62,712 nucleotides of DNA, from positions 1 to 62,712 of IMG/VR virus record IMGVR_UViG_3300047477_000098; one strand, written 5' to 3'. The stretch comes from a virus (taxonomy: Duplodnaviria > Caudoviricetes). Under the pieces are notes generated by a model. The model was not told where the DNA came from. It saw only the letters and a list, made by a program, of their open reading frames with translations, and searched no databases. Numbering within the stretch: position 1 is the first letter of the stretch; each line of letters begins with the position of its first letter. Made by a program: the position numbers and the translations under genes. Of the stretch, positions 20,376 through 53,006 are shown one piece after another.

Positions 20376-22837
20376 TGGAGAAAAATATGTATAGTAGAGA
20401 AGAGGCTGTTGCCGCAAGCCTAGTTTATTTCGACGGCGATAATTTGGCCGCAAATGTGTTTGTTGATAAGTATGCTCTGAAAGATAATGACGGAAATATT
20501 CTGGAAGATACTCCAGATAAGATGCATGATAGACTTGCCAAAGAGTTCGCAAGGATTGAACAAAAGTATCCAAATCCTCTCTCCGAAGCAGAGATACTTC
20601 ATTCAATTAAAAATTTCAAGTATATTGTTCCACAAGGCTCTCCGATGGAAGGCATTGGAAACAACCATAGAGTTACTAGCTTATCTAATTGCTATGTTAT
20701 TCCTTCGCCAGAAGATTCTTACGGTGGTATATTTAAAGCGGACCAGCAAGAAGCTCAGTTGATGAAGAGACGCGGTGGTGTTGGAATGGATATTTCAAAC
20801 ATTCGTCCTAAGGGAATGTCTACCAATAATGCAGCAAAGACTACAGACGGTATAGCAGTGTTTATGGATAGGTTCTCAAACACTTGTCGTGAAGTCGCAC
20901 AGAACGGTAGACGCGGCGCCTTGATGTTAACTATTGATTGCCGACACCCAGAAGTGGAAACATTCATCAATATTAAACGAGATAAGACCAGAGTAACTGG
21001 AGCCAATATCTCAGTTAAGATGAGTGATGACTTTATGGAAGCTGTTAAGAACGATACAACATATCAACAGAAGTGGCCAATCAATTCTCCAAACCCTTCT
21101 ATTGTTAGAGATGTCAACGCAAGAGAAATTTGGGAACAGATAATTGATGCAGCATGGACATCTGCCGAACCAGGAATATTGTTTTGGGATAACGCAATAA
21201 AGAATACTCCATCCGATATCTACACAGAAGAAGGATTCGGTAGTGTGTCAACTAATCCCTGCGGTGAAATTATTCTCAGTCCTTCGGACAGCTGTCGCCT
21301 CATATCACTCAACCTTCTATCGTTCGTGATGAACCCATTCACTGAAAAGGCACAATTTGATTATATCGGATTCAAGTCTTATGTCAAAATGGCTCAGCGT
21401 TTGATGGATGATATGATTGATCTTGAGTTGGAAAAATTAGATGCCATTCTTAATAAAATTGATGCTGATAATGAACCAGAATCCGTTAAGAGAGAAGAGA
21501 AAGAGTTGTGGATCTCAATCAGAGAAGCTTGTCTAAATGGACGTAGAACTGGATTGGGAATCACTGCACTTGGTGATACTATAGCTGCACTTGGAATCAT
21601 ATACGGATCTGCTGAGTCAATAGAGACTACTGAGAGCATCTACAAGACCTTGGCTCTTGGTGCACATGAATCATCTATCGACATGGCAGAAGAGCGTGGA
21701 TCGTTTCCAGTCTTTAATTACGACAAAGAAAAGTCCCATGAGTATCTTTCAAGAGTCATCTGTGAACTTGGACCAGAATATGTTTTGAAGTGGAGGAAGT
21801 TCGGTCGTAGAAATATCGCACTGACCACAACAGCTCCTACAGGAACTGTTTCCTTAATGACACAAACAACCTCTGGAATTGAGCCATGTTTCCAGCCGGT
21901 CTATAAGCGCCGTAAGAAAATTCTTTCTGGCAGCACTGATAGAGTGGATCATATTGATGTGAACGGCGATAAGTGGACTGAGTTTGAAGTTTGTCATCAT
22001 CAGTTCTCCGAGTGGAGAAAGATTTCAGGTAAGACTAATGTTGAAGATTCTCCATACTACAAGGCAACTGCTAATGATGTTGATTGGTCTGCAAGCGTTG
22101 AGCTACAAGCTGTCGCACAAAAGTGGATTGACCATAGCATAAGCAAGACTTGTAATCTTCCAAACTCTGCCACCAAAGAATTAGTGTCAGAGATATATAT
22201 GAAGGCTTGGGAAGTTGGATGCAAGGGTTTCACAATCTATCGTGACGGATGCAGAGATGGAGTTCTTCTAACTGGATCAGAAGAGAAGAAGTCTACATTC
22301 GAGACCAAGGACGCACCTAAGAGACCAGATATTCTTTCTTGCGGAATCAATCAAGTCAAGATTAAGAATGATAGCTGGACTGTTCTTGTTGGATTGATGG
22401 AAGATAAACCTTATGAGATTTTTGCTGGACTATCCAAGTTTGTTTCTATTCCAAAGTCTCTTACAAAGGGTCAGTTAATTAAGACTAAGATTAAGGGAAG
22501 TAAGAAATCCTCTTATGACCTGAGACTTGGAGAGAGTGATGATTCAGTAGTTATCAAAGATATTGGAAAGGTGTTTGAGAATCCAACCGAGGGTGAGTTC
22601 ACAAGAATGATCTCCCTAACTCTTCGTCATGGTGCACCAATCCAATATGTTGTCGAACAACTACAGAAGGATGAAGAGAGTGATATGTATTCATTCTCAA
22701 AGGTCATCGCAAGAGTATTGAAAAAGTATATTCCTGAAGGTGCAGTTACAAGCGAGACTTGCCCAAGCTGTGGATCAAAGATTGTTTACATTGAAGGATG
22801 TAAGCAGTGTCAAAATTGTGCTTGGAGTAAATGTTAA
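20375..22837 (+). CDS. nrdJ: Class II (adenosylcobalamin) ribonucleotide reductase
   Basis: SLSNC, RRGGVG, GRRGALM, TNPCGE, APTGT, SGIEP, SISKT, YRDGCR, C-terminal Zn ribbon; no NrdB in window. Confidence 0.93.
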   Translation: MEKNMYSREEAVAASLVYFDGDNLAANVFVDKYALKDNDGNILEDTPDKMHDRLAKEFARIEQKYPNPLSEAEILHSIKNFKYIVPQGSPMEGIGNNHRVTSLSNCYVIPSPEDSYGGIFKADQQEAQLMKRRGGVGMDISNIRPKGMSTNNAAKTTDGIAVFMDRFSNTCREVAQNGRRGALMLTIDCRHPEVETFINIKRDKTRVTGANISVKMSDDFMEAVKNDTTYQQKWPINSPNPSIVRDVNAREIWEQIIDAAWTSAEPGILFWDNAIKNTPSDIYTEEGFGSVSTNPCGEIILSPSDSCRLISLNLLSFVMNPFTEKAQFDYIGFKSYVKMAQRLMDDMIDLELEKLDAILNKIDADNEPESVKREEKELWISIREACLNGRRTGLGITALGDTIAALGIIYGSAESIETTESIYKTLALGAHESSIDMAEERGSFPVFNYDKEKSHEYLSRVICELGPEYVLKWRKFGRRNIALTTTAPTGTVSLMTQTTSGIEPCFQPVYKRRKKILSGSTDRVDHIDVNGDKWTEFEVCHHQFSEWRKISGKTNVEDSPYYKATANDVDWSASVELQAVAQKWIDHSISKTCNLPNSATKELVSEIYMKAWEVGCKGFTIYRDGCRDGVLLTGSEEKKSTFETKDAPKRPDILSCGINQVKIKNDSWTVLVGLMEDKPYEIFAGLSKFVSIPKSLTKGQLIKTKIKGSKKSSYDLRLGESDDSVVIKDIGKVFENPTEGEFTRMISLTLRHGAPIQYVVEQLQKDEESDMYSFSKVIARVLKKYIPEGAVTSETCPSCGSKIVYIEGCKQCQNCAWSKC

Positions 22838-23871
22838 AGTGTGAACTGTGTTCCGAAATCTTTGAAAATAATAGGGGTGGACAATTAACATCACATCTTA
22901 GGAAATGTCATTCCATATCATTAGAAGAATACAAAATAAAAGTGTTTCATAATGATGTGGTTCCTAAATGTGGTTGTGGATGCGGCAGTGCCGCCCCTTT
23001 TGTTAGGGGTGAGTTTAAAGATTATATTTATGAACACAAATCCCAAAAAAATAAGATTGATATGTATTTAAAGCTCAACGGTCATCCTAAATGTTTAACT
23101 TGTGGTGCTGAGACTCGTTTTAATTATCGCGGTGGCATAGTTAAATATTGTTCAACAAAATGTATTCCTAGAATTGTTAAACAAAAGAACATGACTCATG
23201 GATTCTGTAATCCATTGGTTCAGGAAAAGATACGACAGAATACAATTATTAAATATGGTGTGGATAATATTTCTAAAACTCAAGTCATTAAAGATAAAAT
23301 ATCTGAACTATCTAAAGGTAAAGTTAGATACTACCCAACAACTGAACATAGACAAAAAATGTCTAATTTTATGATTGATATGTGGAAGAATCAAGATTAT
23401 AAGATTTCGCAGTGTGAGTTGATAAAAAAATCAACAAATACTGTAAATGAGAAACTCCGACGTAGGAATTTGGCAATATCAAGAATGGTTGATGGTGCTG
23501 TTCCATTCAAAGGAAAATCATCAAAACTGCATATTAAAATTAGAGAATATTTAAATCTGTCTGATCTTGGATTTGTATCGGAATATAATATTGGTCCATA
23601 TATTGTTGATGAAATTAACACAGAATTAGGAATCGTTATTGAAATTAATGGAGACTATGTGCACGCAAATCCAAATAAGTATAGTGCTGAAAGTTTAATA
23701 AGACTACGAGGAACTGCATATATGTCTATTGAAAAATGGAAAAATGACGAAGTTCGTACAAATTTCTTGGTTGATTGTGGTTATTGTGTTTTTGTTATTT
23801 GGGAAAGCGATGACCTTGATATAGTTAAAAAAACATTATTGGATTTGGTGTATAGAAGTTATGACAGCTGA
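22831..23871 (+). mobile_element. Free-standing putative homing endonuclease (Zn fingers plus Vsr/DUF559-like PD-(D/E)xK domain)
   Basis: CELC..H, PKCGCGCG, KYGVDNI, C-terminal YIVD...IEINGDYVH...IWESD; overlaps nrdJ stop. Confidence 0.75.
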
Positions 23872-28460: not shown

Positions 28461-28508
28461 GAAAAGCAAGCTCAACAGCTTGCTTTTTCATTTTAAATAT
28501 GATATAAT
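28461..28508 (+). terminator. Terminator overlapping the sigma70-type thyA promoter
   Basis: aaaagcaagct-caac-agcttgctttt hairpin; TTGCTT(28480)-17nt-TATAAT(28503). Confidence 0.75.
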
Positions 28509-28525: not shown

Positions 28526-29380
28526 ATGGAAAGCTATCTAAAATTGTTAAGAAAGATTCTCTCCGAAGGTGTAGAGAAAGATAATCGAACTGGGATAAAA
28601 ACAAAGTCTATATCTGGTCATATGTTTGAACATGATATGTCTACAGGATTCCCACTTCTAACCACAAAGTTTGTTTCGCTTAAAACTGTTGCAGTCGAAC
28701 TCGAAGGCTTCATCAAAGGCATCACTTCTAAGAAATGGTTCCAAGATAGAAAATGTCGCATCTGGGATGACTGGTGTAACCCCCAAGTAGTTCCTTACGG
28801 AAATGATGAAGAAACTAAATCCAAGATGAAAGCCGAAGATGACCTAGGTTTAATTTATGGTAATCAATGGAGAGACTTTAGAGATCCTGATAACTCAGAG
28901 CCCGGTGATGGTCTTGACCAATTGAAAATTATAGTGAACCGATTAAAGACTAACCCTACAGATAGAAGAATGATCTGTATGGCTTGGAATCCTTTAGCAC
29001 TAGACTACCAAGCATTACCTCCGTGCCATTATAGCTGGCAAGTCTTATCAGATGGTAACACGCTAGACCTTCTATGGAGCCAGCGCAGTTGTGACGTCCC
29101 ACTCGGAATTCCGTACAACATAGCCTCTTATGCTCTCCTATTAAAGCTTCTGGCTAAAGAAGTCAATATGAAAGAAGGTAAGTTGGTAGGTTTTCTAGCT
29201 GACTGTCAGATCTACCAGAACCAAAATGATGGAGTTACTGAACAGCTCACAAGAACTCCATTAGAACTGTGTCAGGTTGATATTCCCAATTTCAAATCTA
29301 TATATGATTGGGAATCTACTGATCTTGAGACAAAGGATTATAAACATCACGGTAAGATTAGTATGCCAATAGCTGTATGA
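28526..29380 (+). CDS. thyA: Thymidylate synthase
   Basis: FPLLTTK, IWDDW, YGNQWR, ALPPCH, QRSCDVPLGIPYNIASY; uninterrupted. Confidence 0.97.
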   Translation: MESYLKLLRKILSEGVEKDNRTGIKTKSISGHMFEHDMSTGFPLLTTKFVSLKTVAVELEGFIKGITSKKWFQDRKCRIWDDWCNPQVVPYGNDEETKSKMKAEDDLGLIYGNQWRDFRDPDNSEPGDGLDQLKIIVNRLKTNPTDRRMICMAWNPLALDYQALPPCHYSWQVLSDGNTLDLLWSQRSCDVPLGIPYNIASYALLLKLLAKEVNMKEGKLVGFLADCQIYQNQNDGVTEQLTRTPLELCQVDIPNFKSIYDWESTDLETKDYKHHGKISMPIAV

Positions 29381-29664
29381 ATGATAGACAAATTATAAAT
29401 GTCAAGTTTGGTTATTATACTTACTTGAAACTTGTTTGTGAAGATGCTGGATATGTTGCAGCATCTTCACAGATTCAAAAAGAATTGGATGATGAGCTAA
29501 TACAAAGGATGTGCGATGCTGCCAAAGTTTACGATAAGTGTGACACCAATAACAACAAAGACCAGAAAACTGACTTCTGTGGACGACCGATCAACGATAT
29601 ATGTTCGGCTCTTATCAAACACGCAGGGAAGTATTCTCCGCTGCCGCCGTCCATTCACCTTTGA
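29377..29664 (+). CDS. Micro-protein: DR-module plus gp23-like helix
   Basis: NDRQIINVKFGYYTYLK, then SQIQKELDDELIQRM (cf. gp23 EI..EI(D/N)REII); ATGA coupling to thyA. Confidence 0.5.
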   Translation: MNDRQIINVKFGYYTYLKLVCEDAGYVAASSQIQKELDDELIQRMCDAAKVYDKCDTNNNKDQKTDFCGRPINDICSALIKHAGKYSPLPPSIHL

Positions 29665-29749
29665 AAGTAGACCACCTTTGGTAGCTGCAATGGGAACTGA
29701 TGTACAGCAATTGATGATGGAAGCTCTTATGGAAGAATTAAAAGTTTGA
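29516..29749 (+). CDS. Micro-protein: gp23 fragment split by a DR-module
   Basis: FTISVTPITTKTRKL...FTFE-x9-GTDVQQLMMEALMEEL matches the spacing of gp23 FxI...AK(S/T)RxL...(W/Y)(T/S)xE-x9-GxD; AAGGA RBS. Confidence 0.6.
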   Translation: MLPKFTISVTPITTKTRKLTSVDDRSTIYVRLLSNTQGSILRCRRPFTFESRPPLVAAMGTDVQQLMMEALMEELKV

Positions 29750-29765
29750 AAGTTACAGATAGAAC

Positions 29766-30110
29766 TTGAGAACAATAATAGCCGGCAGTAGAGTAATAAC
29801 AGAAATTGGTGTAGTCTCTGCAGCAATACAGATGTCCAAAATAGAAATAACAACTGTCATATGTGGATGTGCACCAGGTGTAGATACTCTTGGTGCCGAA
29901 TACGCAAACCTAAATAGTATTGCAGTTGAATATTATCCAGCAGATTGGGACACATTTGGTAAATCTGCTGGATATAAACGCAATGAACAAATGGCAGAAA
30001 ATGCAGAAGCACTTATTGCCATTTGGGATGGAACGAGTAAAGGAACAAAACATATGATAAACATAGCCAAGAGAAAGGGTCTGCAGGTTAAAGTGTGGAT
30101 ATATGAGTGA
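29766..30110 (+). CDS. SLOG/YspA (DUF2493-like) protein
   Basis: IIAGSR, CGCAPGVD, YPADW, GKSAGYKRNEQM, WDGTSKGT. Confidence 0.88.
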   Translation: MRTIIAGSRVITEIGVVSAAIQMSKIEITTVICGCAPGVDTLGAEYANLNSIAVEYYPADWDTFGKSAGYKRNEQMAENAEALIAIWDGTSKGTKHMINIAKRKGLQVKVWIYE

Positions 30111-30351
30111 TAGGAAAGCGGTAGTTGTATCTTTAGTCTGGGGTAAGAAACGTAGTTATCTGAAACGATCTGATAACTACAGTGCCTTTGGAAATTATGC
30201 AATGCCTCTGGTCAGAAGAATGTTTCCGGAGTTACTTGCAACTAAAGTTGTAGGAGTTCAGCCTATGACAGCACCTATGGGATTAGCTTACAATGAACCG
30301 GATAGAAGGAAAAAAGGATTCGAGGTTAGATGTGTTTCTGAATTTGAATAA
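30103..30351 (+). CDS. Micro-protein: DR-module plus gp23 Gol-region peptide
   Basis: AMPLVRRMFPELLATKVVGVQPMTAPMGL is the conserved gp23 motif. Confidence 0.8.
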   Translation: MSDRKAVVVSLVWGKKRSYLKRSDNYSAFGNYAMPLVRRMFPELLATKVVGVQPMTAPMGLAYNEPDRRKKGFEVRCVSEFE

Positions 30352-30547
30352 CGGACAGGTCAATTGGTCTCAAGGATATTATAAATGGCAGTCATCTGCT
30401 TGTTCAAACTTACAGAAGTTTCACAATCCTCTGAATGGACTTAATAAGATACCAGATAGATTGGTGATTGAGTTTGATTTGATTACCATTCCAAAGAAGC
30501 GTAAACCTATGAGAATAATGAAAGGTAGAAGATGGGCCCAGCGATAA
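30332..30547 (+). CDS. Micro-protein in the capsid-fragment array
   Basis: GTG start with GAGG RBS; IPDRLVIEFDLITIPKKRK weakly gp23-like. Confidence 0.5.
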   Translation: MFLNLNNGQVNWSQGYYKWQSSACSNLQKFHNPLNGLNKIPDRLVIEFDLITIPKKRKPMRIMKGRRWAQR

Positions 30548-30717
30548 TATACATGCCGTATCTGCCTCTATTTGTTCAAAAAACACTTGGTTCAGGTTCC
30601 GATAGAACTATGGTATGTGTTAAGTTTGGATCAGAAATATTGCACATTGATCTTGACTCACAGATTATAAAATTCAAATCGAATAGGACATACGGGAATC
30701 CATGGAAGAGAAAATGA
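30532..30717 (+). CDS. Micro-protein: gp23 YxPY motif plus DR-module
   Basis: AIIYMPYLPL (cf. gp23 G(I/L)(Y/F)Y(A/C)PY(V/I)(P/A)L), then SDRTMVCVKFGSEIL. Confidence 0.65.
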   Translation: MGPAIIYMPYLPLFVQKTLGSGSDRTMVCVKFGSEILHIDLDSQIIKFKSNRTYGNPWKRK

Positions 30718-30872
30718 GAGAATATGTTAAGAAGTATCAGATCAAGAATCTGAGATATTCTACGGACAGAACTAATATAAGAATATTGCTAGGTGATGAT
30801 GTGTTGGAATGTACAGAATCTAAACACCTATTCTTAAACCTAAGTTTTGATTTCACTGGGAGATGGAAATGA
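30714..30872 (+). CDS. 52-aa micro-protein with DR-module (not in ORF track)
   Basis: MREYVKKYQIKNLRYSTDRTNIRILLGDDVLECTESKHLFLNLSFDFTGRWK; ATGA overlaps at both ends. Confidence 0.6.
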   Translation: MREYVKKYQIKNLRYSTDRTNIRILLGDDVLECTESKHLFLNLSFDFTGRWK

Positions 30873-31360
30873 TAGGATTGATTGCTGCTGTTGCCAAGAA
30901 TAATGTTATCGGTGGAAACAATAACATACCGTGGAGTTGTCCAAATGATTTGCAATTCTTCAAAAGGATAACAACTGGTTCGAATGTGATCATGGGTAGA
31001 AAGACTTTCGATTCTTTAGGAAGACCTCTACCAAATAGAACTAACATAGTGATCTCCAGAAGTGAACCTGACGAATGTCCAGCAAATGTTTTGTACGCCT
31101 ATTCGTTAGAAAATGCTCTTGAGATTATTAGTTTACTTTCTAACTATAGGGATGCATGGATAATTGGAGGCTCTCAGATTTACAAGGAAGCTTTGACACA
31201 AGAACTCCCAGACAAAATATTAATATCCAGAATGAATTTTGAAGCTGATGGTGATGTTCTCTTTCCTGAGATACCATCAAGTTATCATGTAACTGACATT
31301 ATGAACATTGATCCAGAGTTCTCTGTTTATAGATATGATCGGTTGCACACGCAAAAGTAA
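30869..31360 (+). CDS. frd: Dihydrofolate reductase
   Basis: IAAVAKNNVIG, IPW, DLQFFK, IMGRKTF, PLPNR, IIGG. Confidence 0.96.
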   Translation: MIGLIAAVAKNNVIGGNNNIPWSCPNDLQFFKRITTGSNVIMGRKTFDSLGRPLPNRTNIVISRSEPDECPANVLYAYSLENALEIISLLSNYRDAWIIGGSQIYKEALTQELPDKILISRMNFEADGDVLFPEIPSSYHVTDIMNIDPEFSVYRYDRLHTQK

Positions 31361-31378: not shown

Positions 31379-31897
31379 ATGAGAACACTAATGGATAATA
31401 ACACTCTGGTCATCGAACCAGAAAAACACGGCTTCACAAAAGAAGCTGTAGTAATTACAGCTAAGGGTAAACGATCAATTCAAGATGTCCAAAGAGGTGA
31501 CTTTGTGTTGACTCACAAAAACCGCTTTAAGAAGGTCTACAAGACTTCTAAGGACATCAACACGACTACAGTTCATACCATTCGCGCAGTCGGCTTAGAA
31601 CCCCTCCAAACGACAGCTGGACAGATGTTCTTGACCAAGAAGTCTATTGTGGATTCTCCAGCTTGGGTTGAAGCTAGAAATATTGAAACTGATTGGTATA
31701 TCGGTGTGCCTGATAAGGTTGACTTTGAATTAGTTGATCCGAAAGCTTACATCGACCAAATGATTTGGATTAAAGTTAAGTATAGTAAAGGATCTGATAA
31801 GAATCATTCTACAACTTATACTTTATCTGTTGAAGATGATGAATCCTTTATAGTCAATTGCTATCCAGCATTTACGGAGGACACATGGAAGAAATAA
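31379..31897 (+). CDS. Stand-alone Hint (intein-like) domain lacking catalytic termini
   Basis: GFTKEAVVITAKGKRSIQDVQRGDFVLTH (block A, Gly at Cys1), TTAGQMF (block B without His), TYTLSVEDDESFIVN (block F), no terminal HN. Confidence 0.75.
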   Translation: MRTLMDNNTLVIEPEKHGFTKEAVVITAKGKRSIQDVQRGDFVLTHKNRFKKVYKTSKDINTTTVHTIRAVGLEPLQTTAGQMFLTKKSIVDSPAWVEARNIETDWYIGVPDKVDFELVDPKAYIDQMIWIKVKYSKGSDKNHSTTYTLSVEDDESFIVNCYPAFTEDTWKK

Positions 31898-33279
31898 AGT
31901 TTTGGCAAGCACCTACTATGGCAGATGTTCATGAGGGTGAAGAAAAGAATCTATTTACCCATGTGTCATTATTCGCTGGTCTTGGTGGTTCATCGACAGG
32001 CATGAGACTTGCTGGTGCACACACTCTTGGGATTTCAGAATTTATTGATTATAGAAATGACATCTATGGTAGAAATTATCCTAAGTGTCAAATCTGGAAT
32101 GAAGATATTCGTGAACTCTCTGGTGATGAGATTCTCCGACGCATTGGATTGAAGAAAGGCGAACTTGACCTTTTAGATGGATCTCCTCCTTGTTCTGATT
32201 TCTCTACCAATAATATGGGCAAGAGAGAGAAGCAATGGGGTAATGAGAAGAAGTATTCCAATAAGCGCCAAAGAGTTGATGACCTGTTTTATGAGTTCGC
32301 AAGAGTTCTAAAGGAAGTCCAACCAAAAGTCTTTGTTGCTGAGAATGTGAAAGGATTAACGGTAGGTAATGCTAAAACTATTTTGGGAGATCGAAGCAAA
32401 AGTCTTTCATCACTCATGGATATTGAGGAAGAAGATGAAGTATCAGATCTTACCAAGTTTAATGGAAAAGATGAAACGATTGTTGAAACCCTAAGAGCGT
32501 GTGGTTATAAGGTATCTTACCAAGTAATGAACTGTGCTCATTATGGTATACCTCAAATCAGAGAGCGTCTCATTTTCATCGGCATTCGTAATGATCTTCC
32601 TTACTCTCCAAGTTTTCCAAAACCATTTACAAAGACCAAGCAGATAATTGGAAAAGATGCTATTGGAAACTTCTTGTTTAACGGTGGTAATGTTGTTCTA
32701 AATCCTGAGACGATGACCTATAGGTATGTTAAGGAATACTTCCCTCCACATACAACTAAACTACAAGTCCTAAACAAAATGAAGGATGAGAAGTTTGGAA
32801 CTTATGCTCATCGCTACCACAGAGATAATTGGGATAAAGTCTTTTACACCATAGTTGCACAAGACGGAAACAATGTCATCCACTCTTTGGTTGATAGATA
32901 TTTCTCAGTCTGTGAGGCTAAGAAGATTCAAGGCTTTCCAGATGATTTCAATGATGGTCTCCCTCCTTTCAAGAGAATAAAGGTATCTGCAAGTGATTTA
33001 ATCAATCCAGATTTTTATTCAAAACTTAACTACAAATGGAAAGACCAAGGTCATGCTTGTGGTGATGTTAAGAATCTCATTGAACTCGGAAGATGGAAAT
33101 GGGATGATATGAAAGATCAGAAGATATTCGACTTAGATTTGGAAACTGAATATGATAAGACTCAAAAATATCTACACAGTTCTAAGTCGTGGGAGAATCT
33201 TGGAAGAGCTGTCCCGCCACTGCTTTATAAAGCAGTTGGGGAACACATCTATGAGAATGTCCTTAAACATCTGAAGTAA
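31885..33279 (+). CDS. C5-cytosine DNA methyltransferase family, predicted carboxymethyltransferase
   Basis: FAGLGG, EDI, GSPPC, ENV, QIRER; motif X is LGRAVPP instead of GNAVPP; GGAGG RBS. Confidence 0.9.
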   Translation: MEEIKFWQAPTMADVHEGEEKNLFTHVSLFAGLGGSSTGMRLAGAHTLGISEFIDYRNDIYGRNYPKCQIWNEDIRELSGDEILRRIGLKKGELDLLDGSPPCSDFSTNNMGKREKQWGNEKKYSNKRQRVDDLFYEFARVLKEVQPKVFVAENVKGLTVGNAKTILGDRSKSLSSLMDIEEEDEVSDLTKFNGKDETIVETLRACGYKVSYQVMNCAHYGIPQIRERLIFIGIRNDLPYSPSFPKPFTKTKQIIGKDAIGNFLFNGGNVVLNPETMTYRYVKEYFPPHTTKLQVLNKMKDEKFGTYAHRYHRDNWDKVFYTIVAQDGNNVIHSLVDRYFSVCEAKKIQGFPDDFNDGLPPFKRIKVSASDLINPDFYSKLNYKWKDQGHACGDVKNLIELGRWKWDDMKDQKIFDLDLETEYDKTQKYLHSSKSWENLGRAVPPLLYKAVGEHIYENVLKHLK

Positions 33280-51687: not shown

Positions 51688-51720
51688 CGATGGGATGAGG
51701 GTAACTTCATCCCATTTCAT
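51688..51720 (+). terminator. Intergenic hairpin
   Basis: atgggatgagg-gtaa-cttcatcccat followed by ttcatt. Confidence 0.55.
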
Positions 51721-51734
51721 TGTTAAGGAATACA

Positions 51735-53006
51735 ATGGCAGATATAGGTAAAGCCGAAAGGCGAATGGACAAGATCGTTGCTAATTGGTATCTTGACGAC
51801 TTTATGATGCTGGGTGCATGGTCCCTTGTAGAAAAGGTGGCTGATCCTAATCAAAAGACTATTGGTATTGATAGCTTGGTCATGCCACCAACTATTAGAT
51901 ATAATCCTAACTTTATCAATGCTTTGACTGATGAAGTTCTGGAAGCAATCATGGCGTCAGAGTGTTTCAAGCTGCTGCTTAGACATCCTACGTCTCGTTT
52001 GAAGAAGCCAAAGCACATCTCTGCACTCTCTTCACAGATCACTGTCGATCAGTTGATTATGAAGAATCTTGTCAACACTGATGGGTTGAAAGATGTTATT
52101 CCAATGCCGAAGGATTTCGGACTTGAGAATGATTCGTTCTTCGAGGAATACTTCCGTCAATTGATGGATAAACTCGAAGAGACTCAGAAGAACACCACTA
52201 AGATGTTTGGTGACAAGAACCAGCCTCCACAAGATGGTGATGGCGATGGTGGAGATGGAGATGGTGACGGACAGGGAGATGGTAAAGGATTCGCTGAGTT
52301 CGGAAAGCAGAAAGATGCTATCAAGGACTACATGGATCCCAACGGTTCTTCTTCAAAGGACTGGGGCGATAACGAACTCCTTGATGCAGAAGTTCAGCAC
52401 TTTGTAGAAAACCACAAGGGCTCGTCAAAGTCTTGGGGTAAGTATTCTGGTGATGCGATGGGACAGATTGTTGCGGCTAATACTCCCAAGATTTCTTGGA
52501 AGGAAGTTGTTCGCAGATTCAATACATCGGTTCAGACTTCTAAACAAGTCTCCACAAGAATGAAACCCAACCGTAGATTCGATTTGGATGCTCCTGGAAG
52601 ACGCCGAGTGTACACAACGAAGATCCTATTCGCTGTAGATGCCTCCGGCTCTATGAGTGATGAGGACGTTGCTGAAGGCTTTGCTGTCATCAACTCCGTG
52701 TGTAAGCACGCCGAAGTTCACTATATGCTTTTCGATACACAGATTAAAGCTGTTGAAACTAAGCTGAAACGTGCTCAGAAGACTTTCAAAATCGGTGGTC
52801 GAGGTGGAACTGATCCAGACCCCGCTTTGAAGTATGTTGATGAACACAAGTATGACGGTATTGTTATCTACTCAGATATGTTCTTCCAGAACAATCCTCA
52901 TAAGCCTCGCAAGTGTAAGGTTCTTTGGCTCGGTTCTACCAAGAACACAAAGAATCCCACGGCTGAGGGGTGGGGCTTCCACGCAGTACTTAACAGACAC
53001 GCTTGA
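51735..53006 (+). CDS. VWA-domain protein (DUF2201-like), MoxR partner
   Basis: MIDAS DASGSM, FDT, GRGGT, YSD; GD-rich linker. Confidence 0.88.
   Translation: MADIGKAERRMDKIVANWYLDDFMMLGAWSLVEKVADPNQKTIGIDSLVMPPTIRYNPNFINALTDEVLEAIMASECFKLLLRHPTSRLKKPKHISALSSQITVDQLIMKNLVNTDGLKDVIPMPKDFGLENDSFFEEYFRQLMDKLEETQKNTTKMFGDKNQPPQDGDGDGGDGDGDGQGDGKGFAEFGKQKDAIKDYMDPNGSSSKDWGDNELLDAEVQHFVENHKGSSKSWGKYSGDAMGQIVAANTPKISWKEVVRRFNTSVQTSKQVSTRMKPNRRFDLDAPGRRRVYTTKILFAVDASGSMSDEDVAEGFAVINSVCKHAEVHYMLFDTQIKAVETKLKRAQKTFKIGGRGGTDPDPALKYVDEHKYDGIVIYSDMFFQNNPHKPRKCKVLWLGSTKNTKNPTAEGWGFHAVLNRHA

What the first reader, a model, noticed from the sequence alone, without database searches (positions are those of the whole stretch)
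29377..30872. Array of micro-genes fusing a shared module to different major-capsid (gp23) fragments
Seen: six overlapping or coupled 52-95 aa ORFs between thyA and DHFR. Five share a module: NDRQIINVKFGYYTYL, DDRSTIYVRLLSNTQGSIL, SDRKAVVVSLVWGKKRSYL, SDRTMVCVKFGSEIL, TDRTNIRILLGDDVL. Two copies are similar in DNA (gataga...gt(c/t)aagtttgg). A 7-codon remnant (LKVTDRT, 29746-29769) precedes the inserted SLOG gene. Each is joined to a different recalled gp23 hallmark: QIQKELDDELI; FTI..ITTKTRKL plus TFE-x9-GTDV..ALMEEL; LVRRMFP...VQPMTAPMGL; IIYMPYLPL; weakly EYVKKYQIKNL. The fragments are not collinear and each has its own start, so this is not one decayed capsid gene. They sit behind a sigma70-type promoter and so would precede true capsid synthesis. 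Inference: an epitope-display/decoy library that titrates capsid-sensing defences (Lit, CapRel-like) or poisons competitor capsid assembly. I know of no description of this architecture.
Basis: partly seen in the sequence, partly recalled or inferred. Interest (0 to 1): 0.9.

Follow-up and report, generated by a model that had tools for sequence, protein, structure and literature searches.

The report
Capsid-gene fragments reused as micro-genes
Between the thymidylate synthase and dihydrofolate reductase genes of a large T4-like phage lie six short, coupled genes partly built from scrambled pieces of the major capsid gene; at least two look maintained by selection, and free-standing copies of one capsid piece recur in other big phages.

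Summary
Between thyA and DHFR lie six + strand ORFs of 52-95 aa and an inserted SLOG gene.

**Capsid fragments.** Four ORFs carry significant, non-collinear pieces of a gp23-type capsid protein: O1, O2, O4 and O6 (0 of 500 shuffles each). O7 is a diverged paralogue of O6. O5 is unresolved.

**DR motif.** It is real as a pattern: 6 of its 8 six-frame hits in 62.7 kb lie in this 1.5 kb. It has no DNA-level repeat and no established origin.

**Not plain debris.**
- The + strand is fully tiled by ORFs (0 of 2000 shuffles).
- O4 has a 90-aa orthologue (57% identity, same start and tail).
- Strain variants change 6 O6 codons silently and 2 not.
- The one indel reported is in frame.

**The O4 piece.** It aligns to T4 gp23 residues 90-124, the most conserved capsid segment, which I take to be the EF-Tu-binding Gol region. 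Free-standing ORFs with this segment occur in two other phages, one ending 5 nt before DHFR.

**Reading.** These are exapted capsid-segment mimics of unproven function. The decoy idea is untested; neutral debris kept open for translational coupling remains the main rival.

The parts
28461..28508 (+). terminator-like hairpin (28461-28488) followed by a promoter-like site: TTGCTT, 17 nt, TATAAT with TG upstream (28480-28508)
   Evidence: consensus reading only, not shown to function
28526..29380 (+). thymidylate synthase (thyA); its stop overlaps the O1 start (ATGA)
   Evidence: the 10 thyA codon changes among listed strain variants are all silent
29377..29664 (+). O1, 95 aa: DR motif at 29383; capsid-like stretch 29467-29532 (capsid HMM positions 211-232, spine-helix region)
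   Evidence: 0 of 500 shuffles in both HMMs; codon score 0.211, reached by 1.3% of 159 spurious ORFs
29516..29749 (+). O2, 77 aa, frame +1 relative to O1. Capsid-like 29525-29575 (HMM 166-182, weak) and 29642-29743 (181-214), separated in frame by about 25 aa that hold a DR motif (29585)
   Evidence: 0 of 500; listed variants 3 silent, 6 replacement codons
29746..29769 (+). remnant ...LKVTDRT* of a further DR motif, cut by the SLOG gene; AGAAC occurs twice at the junction
29766..30110 (+). SLOG (YAcAr / DUF2493-type) gene with TTG start, apparently inserted into the array
   Evidence: Pfam PF10686 1.4e-8; phrog_289 7.5e-30; 8 silent, 0 replacement codons
30103..30351 (+). O4, 82 aa: DR motif (30109), capsid island 30154-30309 (HMM 47-102, aligning to T4 gp23 residues 90-124), and a tail with a second DR (30301)
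   Evidence: orthologue P0017; in-frame 18-nt indel between strains behind 30285
30293..30547 (+). O5, 84 aa: overlaps the O4 tail in another frame and carries a sixth DR motif at 30455; capsid homology unresolved
   Evidence: 1 of 500 and 158 of 500; the Atlas's own model has pLDDT 0.30
30532..30717 (+). O6, 61 aa: capsid island 30541-30621 (HMM 362-388), then a DR motif (30601)
   Evidence: 0 of 500; listed variants 6 silent, 2 replacement codons, including AGA>CGA and CTT>TTA; identical contig in an RNA library over 30496-30686
30714..30872 (+). O7, 52 aa (56 from the ATG at 30702): diverged tandem paralogue of O6 with a DR motif at 30765; its stop overlaps the DHFR start
   Evidence: 9 of 5000 shuffles; no direct capsid HMM hit
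30869..31360 (+). dihydrofolate reductase (alternative start 30863)

Best explanation
**Origin.** Pieces of a T4-type major capsid gene were copied ectopically into the early thyA-DHFR operon. They were then multiplied by short tandem duplications whose period is not a multiple of three, for example 146 and 164 nt between successive DR motifs. Each copy therefore ended in its own frame and became a separate small gene, joined to its neighbours by overlapping stop and start codons. A SLOG gene was later inserted.

**Status.** At least part of the set (O4, O6, and probably O1) is now kept as translated micro-proteins.

**Proposed mode of action (inference).** Each micro-protein presents one conserved capsid segment out of context, next to a short beta-hairpin-like DR motif. 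The segments are the N-arm/Gol region, the E-loop strand with the spine helix, and a C-terminal strand; these structural names are recalled, not from a call. Such a protein would compete for whatever partner normally contacts unassembled or nascent capsid protein.

**Most concrete case: O4.** It is a free copy of what I take to be the Gol region. In T4 that region binds EF-Tu domains II-III and inhibits its GTPase. Made before the capsid protein, O4 would occupy or modulate EF-Tu, or a sensor that reads this segment.

**Shown:** the capsid origin of four ORFs, their non-collinearity, ORF maintenance, the O4 orthologue, and the silent-change bias in O6.

**Inferred:** translation, binding partners and benefit.
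For: - **Capsid origin.** O1, O2, O4 and O6 each had 0 of 500 shuffles reaching their score against two capsid HMMs, with negative controls. O4 scores Pfam Gp23 4.8e-8.
- **Tandem origin.** O6 and O7 align without gaps over 28 aa (9 of 5000 shuffles). DR motifs are spaced 146-202 nt apart, or 351 nt across the SLOG gene.
- **ORF maintenance.** + strand ORFs of at least 50 aa cover 0.96 and 1.00 of the two halves, against 0.08-0.10 in shuffles (0 of 2000 each). Stop/start overlaps occur at four junctions.
- **O4 conservation.** phmmer against 1.84 billion representatives found one small orthologue, P0017 (90 aa, E 7.6e-15). It is 57% identical over the whole length, with the same MSD[RK]K start and the same non-capsid tail.
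- **Strain variants (40 of 154 shown).** O6 has 6 silent and 2 replacement codons, including two changes that are silent only in this frame. thyA has 10 and 0; SLOG has 8 and 0. The only indel reported over the 3.1 kb is an in-frame 18 nt in O4 that restores a capsid-like AYAMRY also present in P0017.
- **Divergence.** The X5 strain differs at 14 of 460, 16 of 390 and 20 of 456 positions across the array. The piece spanning most of thyA and part of O1 differs at 57 of 1019, and the piece covering most of DHFR and the start of the next ORF at 12 of 566.
- **Codon score.** O1 (0.211), O4 (0.180) and the non-overlapping parts of O2 and O5 fall in the real-gene range and in the top 1-5% of 159 spurious ORFs.
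- **Recurrence elsewhere.**
  - L047 has a 64-aa ORF (Pfam Gp23 3.5e-7) ending 5 nt before DHFR.
  - G007, rated 100% complete, has a full capsid gene plus an 84-aa ORF with the same segment 67 kb away (Pfam 1.2e-10).
  - That ORF differs from its own capsid gene by 16 silent and 12 replacement codons of 46, with a 39-nt patch identical at 38 positions.
- **T4 link.** O4 residues 28-62 align to T4 gp23 90-124. [quoted passage not shown]
Against: - No expression data. The RNA-library contigs may be carried-over DNA.
- O2 shows no silent-change bias (3 silent, 6 replacement), and O7's only listed change is a replacement.
- O6 and O7 have low codon scores (0.097 and 0.053). These are below the 5th percentile of real-gene chunks and are reached by 14% and 26% of spurious ORFs.
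- O1/O2 overlap by 149 nt and O4/O5 by 59 nt, which is unusual for real genes.
- No homologues of O6 or O1 were found by the word-based search, and none of the array in IMG/VR.
- The proteins do not fold with confidence: O4 has AF2 pLDDT 40, and the Atlas's own models give O5 0.30 and O1 0.46.
- Only 40 of 154 variants could be seen, so the selection test rests on few codons.
- The paralogue comparison in G007 mixes the constraint on the real capsid gene with that on the fragment.
- A Gol-type peptide made early would, in a Lit-carrying host, be expected to trigger rather than block Lit.
Confidence: 0.4

Rival explanations
1. Evolutionary debris. An ectopic capsid-gene copy, brought in by illegitimate or nuclease-associated recombination, was scrambled by duplications, deletions and the SLOG insertion. 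The ORFs stay open only because ribosomes must read through to keep DHFR translationally coupled and the message protected. The peptides themselves do nothing.
For: - The fragments are short (about 20-55 aa), non-collinear and partly duplicated.
- O2 shows 3 silent and 6 replacement codons and O7 0 and 1.
- Long out-of-frame overlaps occur.
- Folds are poor and codon scores are low for O6 and O7.
- Homing-endonuclease genes lie in the same gene cluster (22831-23868 and 51720-53003).
- Passages seen in PMC10448857 report such genes clustering near capsid and ribonucleotide-reductase genes and mobilising neighbouring cargo.
Against: - Coupling alone needs open frames, not conserved residues. Yet O6 has 6 silent and 2 replacement codons.
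- O4 keeps its start, tail and island at 57% identity in P0017.
- The capsid-like islands stay about 75-80% identical to real capsid proteins while the flanks share nothing. Neutral decay would not leave that pattern.
- The same capsid segment stands as a separate ORF in two unrelated contexts.
Confidence: 0.3
2. Capsid-directed factors. The micro-proteins use their capsid-derived strands to dock onto the phage's own capsid protein, scaffold or chaperone. They would act as assembly timers or chaperone-like caps, as packaged head components, or as dominant-negative poisons of a co-infecting relative's capsids.
For: - By recalled structural knowledge, the retained pieces are core elements that pack against each other in the HK97 fold.
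- G007 also has a 230-aa ORF whose first 50 aa are 70% identical to residues 56-105 of its own capsid protein. This suggests capsid segments reused as tags.
Against: - The genes sit in an early-type nucleotide-metabolism operon, not in the head module.
- No binding test could be run.
- The phage's own capsid gene is not in the 62.7-kb record.
Confidence: 0.12
3. A DNA-level reservoir. The array is a set of partial capsid-gene cassettes that exchange short tracts with the real capsid gene by gene conversion. It would work like silent-cassette systems of bacterial surface antigens (recalled), for example to repair or vary a conserved segment that is cut or sensed.
For: - In G007 a 39-nt stretch of the ectopic ORF is identical at 38 positions to the resident capsid gene, although silent sites before it are heavily diverged.
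- The O4 island shares states with one capsid subclade (27 of 35 identical to P0002). Its orthologue P0017 shares states with another (28 of 35 to the L034 capsid protein). O4 and P0017 share 27 of 35 with each other.
Against: - The fragments cover the most conserved, not the variable, capsid segments.
- They are translated-looking ORFs with coupling.
- O4 is only about 71% identical in DNA to the nearest capsid genes I could fetch.
- The window phage's own capsid gene was not available, so no tract could be looked for.
Confidence: 0.08

Closest known systems
Gol region of T4 gp23 (Gol peptide, EF-Tu, Lit protease exclusion)
   Same: O4 residues 28-62 align to T4 gp23 residues 90-124 and to Pfam Gp23 positions 4-38. 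The review read calls the Gol region a 29-residue segment in the first quarter of gp23, the most conserved part of the protein, that binds EF-Tu. That its residues are about 93-122 is recalled, not from a call.
   Different: Here the segment is a separate 82-aa ORF in an early-type operon, flanked by non-capsid sequence. It is not part of the capsid protein. EF-Tu binding and Lit activation were not tested.
Capsid paralogues such as the gp24 vertex protein
   Same: Both derive from duplication of the major capsid gene.
   Different: gp24 is a full-length HK97-fold protein (recalled). Here only pieces of about 20-55 aa remain. They are out of order, in different frames, and split over six ORFs.
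Small ORFs of plastic regions and nuclease-bounded islands in large phages (PMC10448857, passages seen)
   Same: Short ORFs of unknown function sit among nucleotide-metabolism genes, with homing-endonuclease genes nearby. One related contig has a SegE-type GIY-YIG gene directly followed by an ORF with a Gol-like half-motif.
   Different: The passages I saw do not describe an array of capsid-gene fragments. That paper's supplementary tables could not be read.
Silent-cassette gene-conversion arrays (pilS, vls; recalled)
   Same: Both are clusters of partial, non-collinear copies of the gene for the main surface protein. One near-identical DNA patch was seen in G007.
   Different: There is no DNA repeat between the units. 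The copies are ORFs with coupling, and they cover conserved, not variable, segments.
Phage anti-defence mimics and sponges
   Same: Both are small early proteins that could act by imitating a molecule the host reads.
   Different: No homology to any such protein was found. PADLOC gave no hit for the six micro-ORFs and only a 0.034 hit (ShosA) for SLOG. The resemblance is in proposed function only.

Membership tests
Major capsid protein Gp23 (PF07068) | Significant match to the family profile | tested here: met
   O4 scores 33.2 bits against a cut-off of 24.4 (31.6 bits). The other ORFs match only clade-specific HMMs.
Major capsid protein Gp23 (PF07068) | Full-length, collinear HK97-fold protein of about 400-520 aa | tested here: not met
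   The matches cover HMM positions 47-102, 166-214, 211-232 and 362-388 only. They lie in four ORFs, out of order. These are fragments, not a capsid protein.
Gol peptide of T4 gp23 | Homology to the gp23 segment that defines Gol | tested here: met
   O4 28-62 aligns with T4 gp23 90-124. Placing Gol within this stretch rests on the review's description and on recalled residue numbers.
Gol peptide of T4 gp23 | Binds EF-Tu and makes it cleavable by Lit | not testable with these tools
Pseudogene / neutral gene remnant | Truncated, rearranged copy of a functional gene | tested here: met
Pseudogene / neutral gene remnant | Neutral evolution: frames decay and there is no excess of silent changes | tested here: inconclusive
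   Against neutrality: ORF tiling 0 of 2000 shuffles, O6 with 6 silent and 2 replacement codons, and the O4 orthologue. Compatible with neutrality: O2 with 3 and 6, O7 with 0 and 1. Only 40 of 154 variants were visible.
Repeat-spacer or tandem DNA array | Conserved DNA repeat between the units | tested here: not met
   No direct-repeat family beyond 2-copy matches of 12-29 nt, no TRF array, and only GATAGA shared.
Intein / Hint fragment (considered for the DR motif) | Match to Hint or intein profiles, or to the neighbouring Hint ORF | tested here: not met
   No Hint hit at E up to 1 for any micro-ORF. The best local alignment to the Hint ORF is O4 at 25 of 2000 shuffles, in a different part of that protein.
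Anti-phage defence or known defence-related proteins (PADLOC) | Profile match | tested here: not met
   0 of 6 micro-ORFs match at E up to 0.1.

The most novel reading that the evidence does not exclude
Large T4-like and jumbo phages have repeatedly cut the most conserved segment of their capsid protein (the Gol region) out as a free-standing early peptide gene. I found at least three loci with unrelated flanks: the window's O4 with P0017, L047 next to DHFR, and G007. This phage would have gone further and keeps a small set of capsid-segment mimics. They would act on a conserved host reader of nascent capsid protein, either EF-Tu itself or immune sensors that watch this segment. That would make them a new class of counter-defence or translation-control peptides.
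Probability: 0.22. Interest if true: 0.85.

Novelty: new variant of a known kind. Interest (0 to 1): 0.62.

Why it matters
- **Gene birth.** If the micro-proteins are made, this is a worked example of how new phage genes arise. Out-of-frame tandem duplication of fragments of an essential structural gene would be followed by splitting into coupled mini-genes.
- **A testable target.** It would also show that the capsid segment known to bind EF-Tu has a life of its own as a peptide. That makes an old open question directly testable: why is the Gol region the most conserved part of gp23, and what does its EF-Tu contact do?
- **Defence context.** Many defence systems are now reported to sense capsid proteins (passages seen in PMC13728456). 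Capsid-segment mimics would therefore be a plausible and so far undescribed counter-measure. My literature searches found no description of such fragments.
- **If it is debris.** It still documents ectopic capture of capsid-gene pieces inside a nucleotide-metabolism operon.

Tried and rejected
**Module origin**
- As an MCP beta-hairpin (capsid HMM 312-345): none of 8 motif peptides beat shuffles (best 70 of 1000). Rejected.
- As a Hint or intein block: not supported.
- As the capsid N-terminal helix: suggested by a BLASTP alignment to phage BUDD. The HMMs do not extend into it. Left open.

**DNA repeat or RNA element**
- The repeat finder, TRF and an anchored alignment show no DNA repeat.
- Rfam gives only one chance-level hit outside the array.

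**Relatives**
- No match in cultured phages by megablast. blastn hits only the SLOG gene.
- IMG/VR scans with O4, the upstream 457-aa protein and a 23-nt pattern found nothing.
- The fetched thyA loci (3 viral, 27 metagenomic) hold no capsid fragment. The two viral ones I read (L004, L005) are not syntenic. L016 (81% identity) ends inside thyA.
- O6 and O1 have no word-sharing homologues.
- P0002-type capsid genes are absent from IMG/VR. The phage's own capsid gene was therefore never seen.

**Short capsid-like proteins**
- At least one group aligns with capsid N-termini (P0097), so many are probably capsid genes cut by contig ends. I do not count them as free-standing genes.
- H93 and H95 proved to be full capsid genes.

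**Folds and look-alikes**
- AF2 on O4 gave pLDDT 40, so no fold search was made.
- The Atlas look-alikes for O1 (plant carboxypeptidase fragments, 0.95 but 166 shared features) and for O5 are taken as chance.

**Sequencing runs**
- RNA run X8 holds identical contigs over parts of thyA, SLOG, O6 and DHFR. This does not show transcription.
- Parts without cover in X6-X8 mean nothing.

Full report
**Setting.** The window is a 62.7-kb IMG/VR virus record rated about 32% complete.
- Nearly all its genes are on the + strand.
- It carries a T4-type DNA polymerase, a DnaB-like helicase, ribonucleotide reductase and homing-endonuclease genes.
- No full capsid gene lies in it.
- thyA (28526-29380) follows a terminator-like hairpin and a TTGCTT-17 nt-TATAAT site with TG upstream.
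- The generic promoter scan shows no excess of sites (12 found, 11.6 expected), so the promoter is plausible only.

**The ORFs.**
- The micro-ORFs are O1, O2, O4, O5, O6 and O7, of 52-95 aa.
- The SLOG gene scores Pfam YAcAr 1.4e-8 and phrog_289 7.5e-30.
- Four junctions are stop/start overlaps of the ATGA type.
- O1/O2 and O4/O5 overlap out of frame by 149 and 59 nt.
- + strand ORFs of at least 50 aa cover 0.96 and 1.00 of the two halves of the array. Dinucleotide-preserving shuffles give 0.08-0.10 (0 of 2000 each).

**Capsid fragments.**
- Pfam Gp23 reaches its cut-off only for O4.
- I built HMMs from the capsid proteins closest to O4: 9 sequences, then 19.
- With these, O4 (positions 47-102), O6 (362-388), O2 (181-214, plus a weak 166-182) and O1 (211-232) each beat all 500 composition-preserving shuffles in both HMMs.
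- SLOG, the DHFR N-terminus and the thyA C-terminus did not beat theirs. O5 was ambiguous (1 of 500 and 158 of 500). O7 gave no hit.
- O7 aligns without gaps to O6 over 28 aa (9 of 5000 shuffles, one of 28 pairs tested). I read it as a diverged tandem copy.
- The order on the DNA is 211-232, 166-214, SLOG, 47-102, 362-388. This is not one decayed collinear gene.
- The capsid-like islands are sharp. In the alignment, 16 consecutive residues of O4 equal the clade consensus, and O6 matches 14 of its first 18 aligned residues. The flanks share nothing.

**The DR motif.**
It occurs 8 times in all six frames of the window.
- GATAGR is seven-fold enriched. Three of its seven copies sit at gene junctions, where TGATAG gives a double stop.
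- There is no DNA conservation beyond these six letters.
- Pairwise protein similarity is otherwise at chance.
- AF2 draws the O4 motif as a beta-hairpin, at low confidence.
- I could not tie the motif to a capsid hairpin or to a Hint block. Its origin is open.
- Successive motifs lie 146-202 nt apart. The steps 146 and 164 nt are each 2 mod 3. This explains why O5, O6 and O7 step through the three frames.

**Debris or genes?** Evidence for genes:
1. ORF tiling.
2. phmmer of O4 against 1.84 billion representatives found one small orthologue, P0017 (90 aa). It is 57% identical from the first residue to the tail. It has the same start and the same non-capsid C-terminal motif.
3. Three runs from other samples hold strains with roughly 2-6% of letters differing, by piece in X5. 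Among the 40 of 154 variants shown, thyA has 10 silent and 0 replacement codons and SLOG 8 and 0. O6 has 6 and 2, including AGA>CGA and CTT>TTA, which are silent only in the O6 frame.
4. The only indel reported is an in-frame 18 nt in O4. It restores six capsid-like residues that P0017 also has.
5. Array divergence in strain X5 is 3.0-4.4%. The pieces covering mostly thyA and mostly DHFR differ by 5.6% and 2.1%. This is no higher than in the flanking genes.

Evidence against:
- O2 has 3 silent and 6 replacement codons, and O7 has 0 and 1.
- Codon scores of O6 and O7 are low.
- No ORF folds with confidence.
- The RNA-library contigs do not prove transcription.

**The same segment elsewhere.** I scanned 55 fetched thyA and DHFR loci with the capsid HMMs and got one hit.
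- **L047.** It has a 64-aa ORF made almost wholly of the segment found in O4. The ORF ends 5 nt before the DHFR start (Pfam 3.5e-7).
- **G007.** Following up that ORF led to G007 (238.8 kb, rated 100% complete). It has a full capsid gene and, 67 kb away, an 84-aa ORF with the same segment.
- **G007 codon comparison.** Against its own capsid gene that ORF shows 18 identical, 16 silent and 12 replacement codons out of 46. One 39-nt patch is identical at 38 positions. This fits long constraint on the peptide plus a recent conversion tract.
- **G007, further ORF.** A 230-aa ORF begins with a copy of capsid residues 56-105.
- **Flanks.** The flanks of these ORFs are unrelated to O4's. The recruitment therefore looks repeated rather than inherited.
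- **Cultured phages.** In cultured phages every hit I checked was a real capsid gene.

**What the segment is.**
- O4 residues 28-62 align to T4 gp23 residues 90-124.
- The T4 review (section 37, read) describes Gol as a 29-residue region in the first quarter of gp23 and the most conserved part of the protein. It binds EF-Tu domains II-III, inhibits its GTPase and makes it cleavable by Lit.
- That Gol lies at about residues 93-122 is my recollection.

**Reading.** I therefore read O4 as a free Gol-type peptide. I read the array as capsid-segment mimics that arose by out-of-frame tandem duplication of captured capsid-gene pieces.
- The partner and the benefit are inferred.
- A Lit-type system would be expected to be triggered, not blocked, by such a peptide unless it binds without activating.

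**Prior description.** My literature searches and the passages read show no description of capsid-fragment micro-genes or free-standing Gol peptides. These were few keyword searches of an open-access library, and supplements were not seen.

Noticed in passing
window 31379-33279: A 172-aa free-standing Hint-domain ORF (Pfam Hint_2 4.8e-5, below its cut-off) overlaps the start of a C5 DNA methyltransferase gene. Both match phrog_36001, whose profile carries the methyltransferase N-terminus followed by the Hint part. It looks like a displaced or degenerate intein remnant. The residue aligned just before the first matched profile position is His, not Cys.
   Followed up: partly
window 30285: Strain polymorphism: run X5 has 18 extra bases (six codons, in frame) in O4, flanked by a short direct repeat GCTTA. 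The longer form matches the orthologue P0017.
   Followed up: yes
window 22831-23868 and 51720-53003: Homing-endonuclease-like genes (phrog_3339 and an HNH of phrog_1314) lie in the same gene cluster, the first directly after the ribonucleotide reductase large subunit.
   Followed up: no
L069 3010-3264, L072 and L076 526-1218 (record G007): A complete 239-kb phage has a full capsid gene plus two ectopic ORFs that reuse capsid segments. One is an 84-aa ORF with the Gol-type segment, beside a weakly Macro-like ORF (Pfam 0.0011, below cut-off). The other is a 230-aa ORF whose N-terminus copies capsid residues 56-105. A 39-nt patch is identical at 38 positions to the capsid gene.
   Followed up: partly
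L071 1457-3123: A SegE-type GIY-YIG endonuclease gene (Pfam 3e-22) is directly followed by a 70-aa ORF ending in a Gol-like half-motif. About 650 nt further on, a 125-aa ORF ends in a partial Gol-like motif (Pfam Gp23 about 1e-3, below cut-off).
   Followed up: partly
L047 1209-3689: Three consecutive paralogous ORFs (205, 270 and 283 aa) with very similar N-termini lie upstream of the capsid-fragment ORF and DHFR. I did not identify them.
   Followed up: no
window 29414-29442 and 30869-30897, minus strand: Strong sigma70-like consensus matches on the minus strand (11 of 12 and 10 of 12). The second would give antisense RNA across the array. The overall count of sites is at chance level.
   Followed up: no
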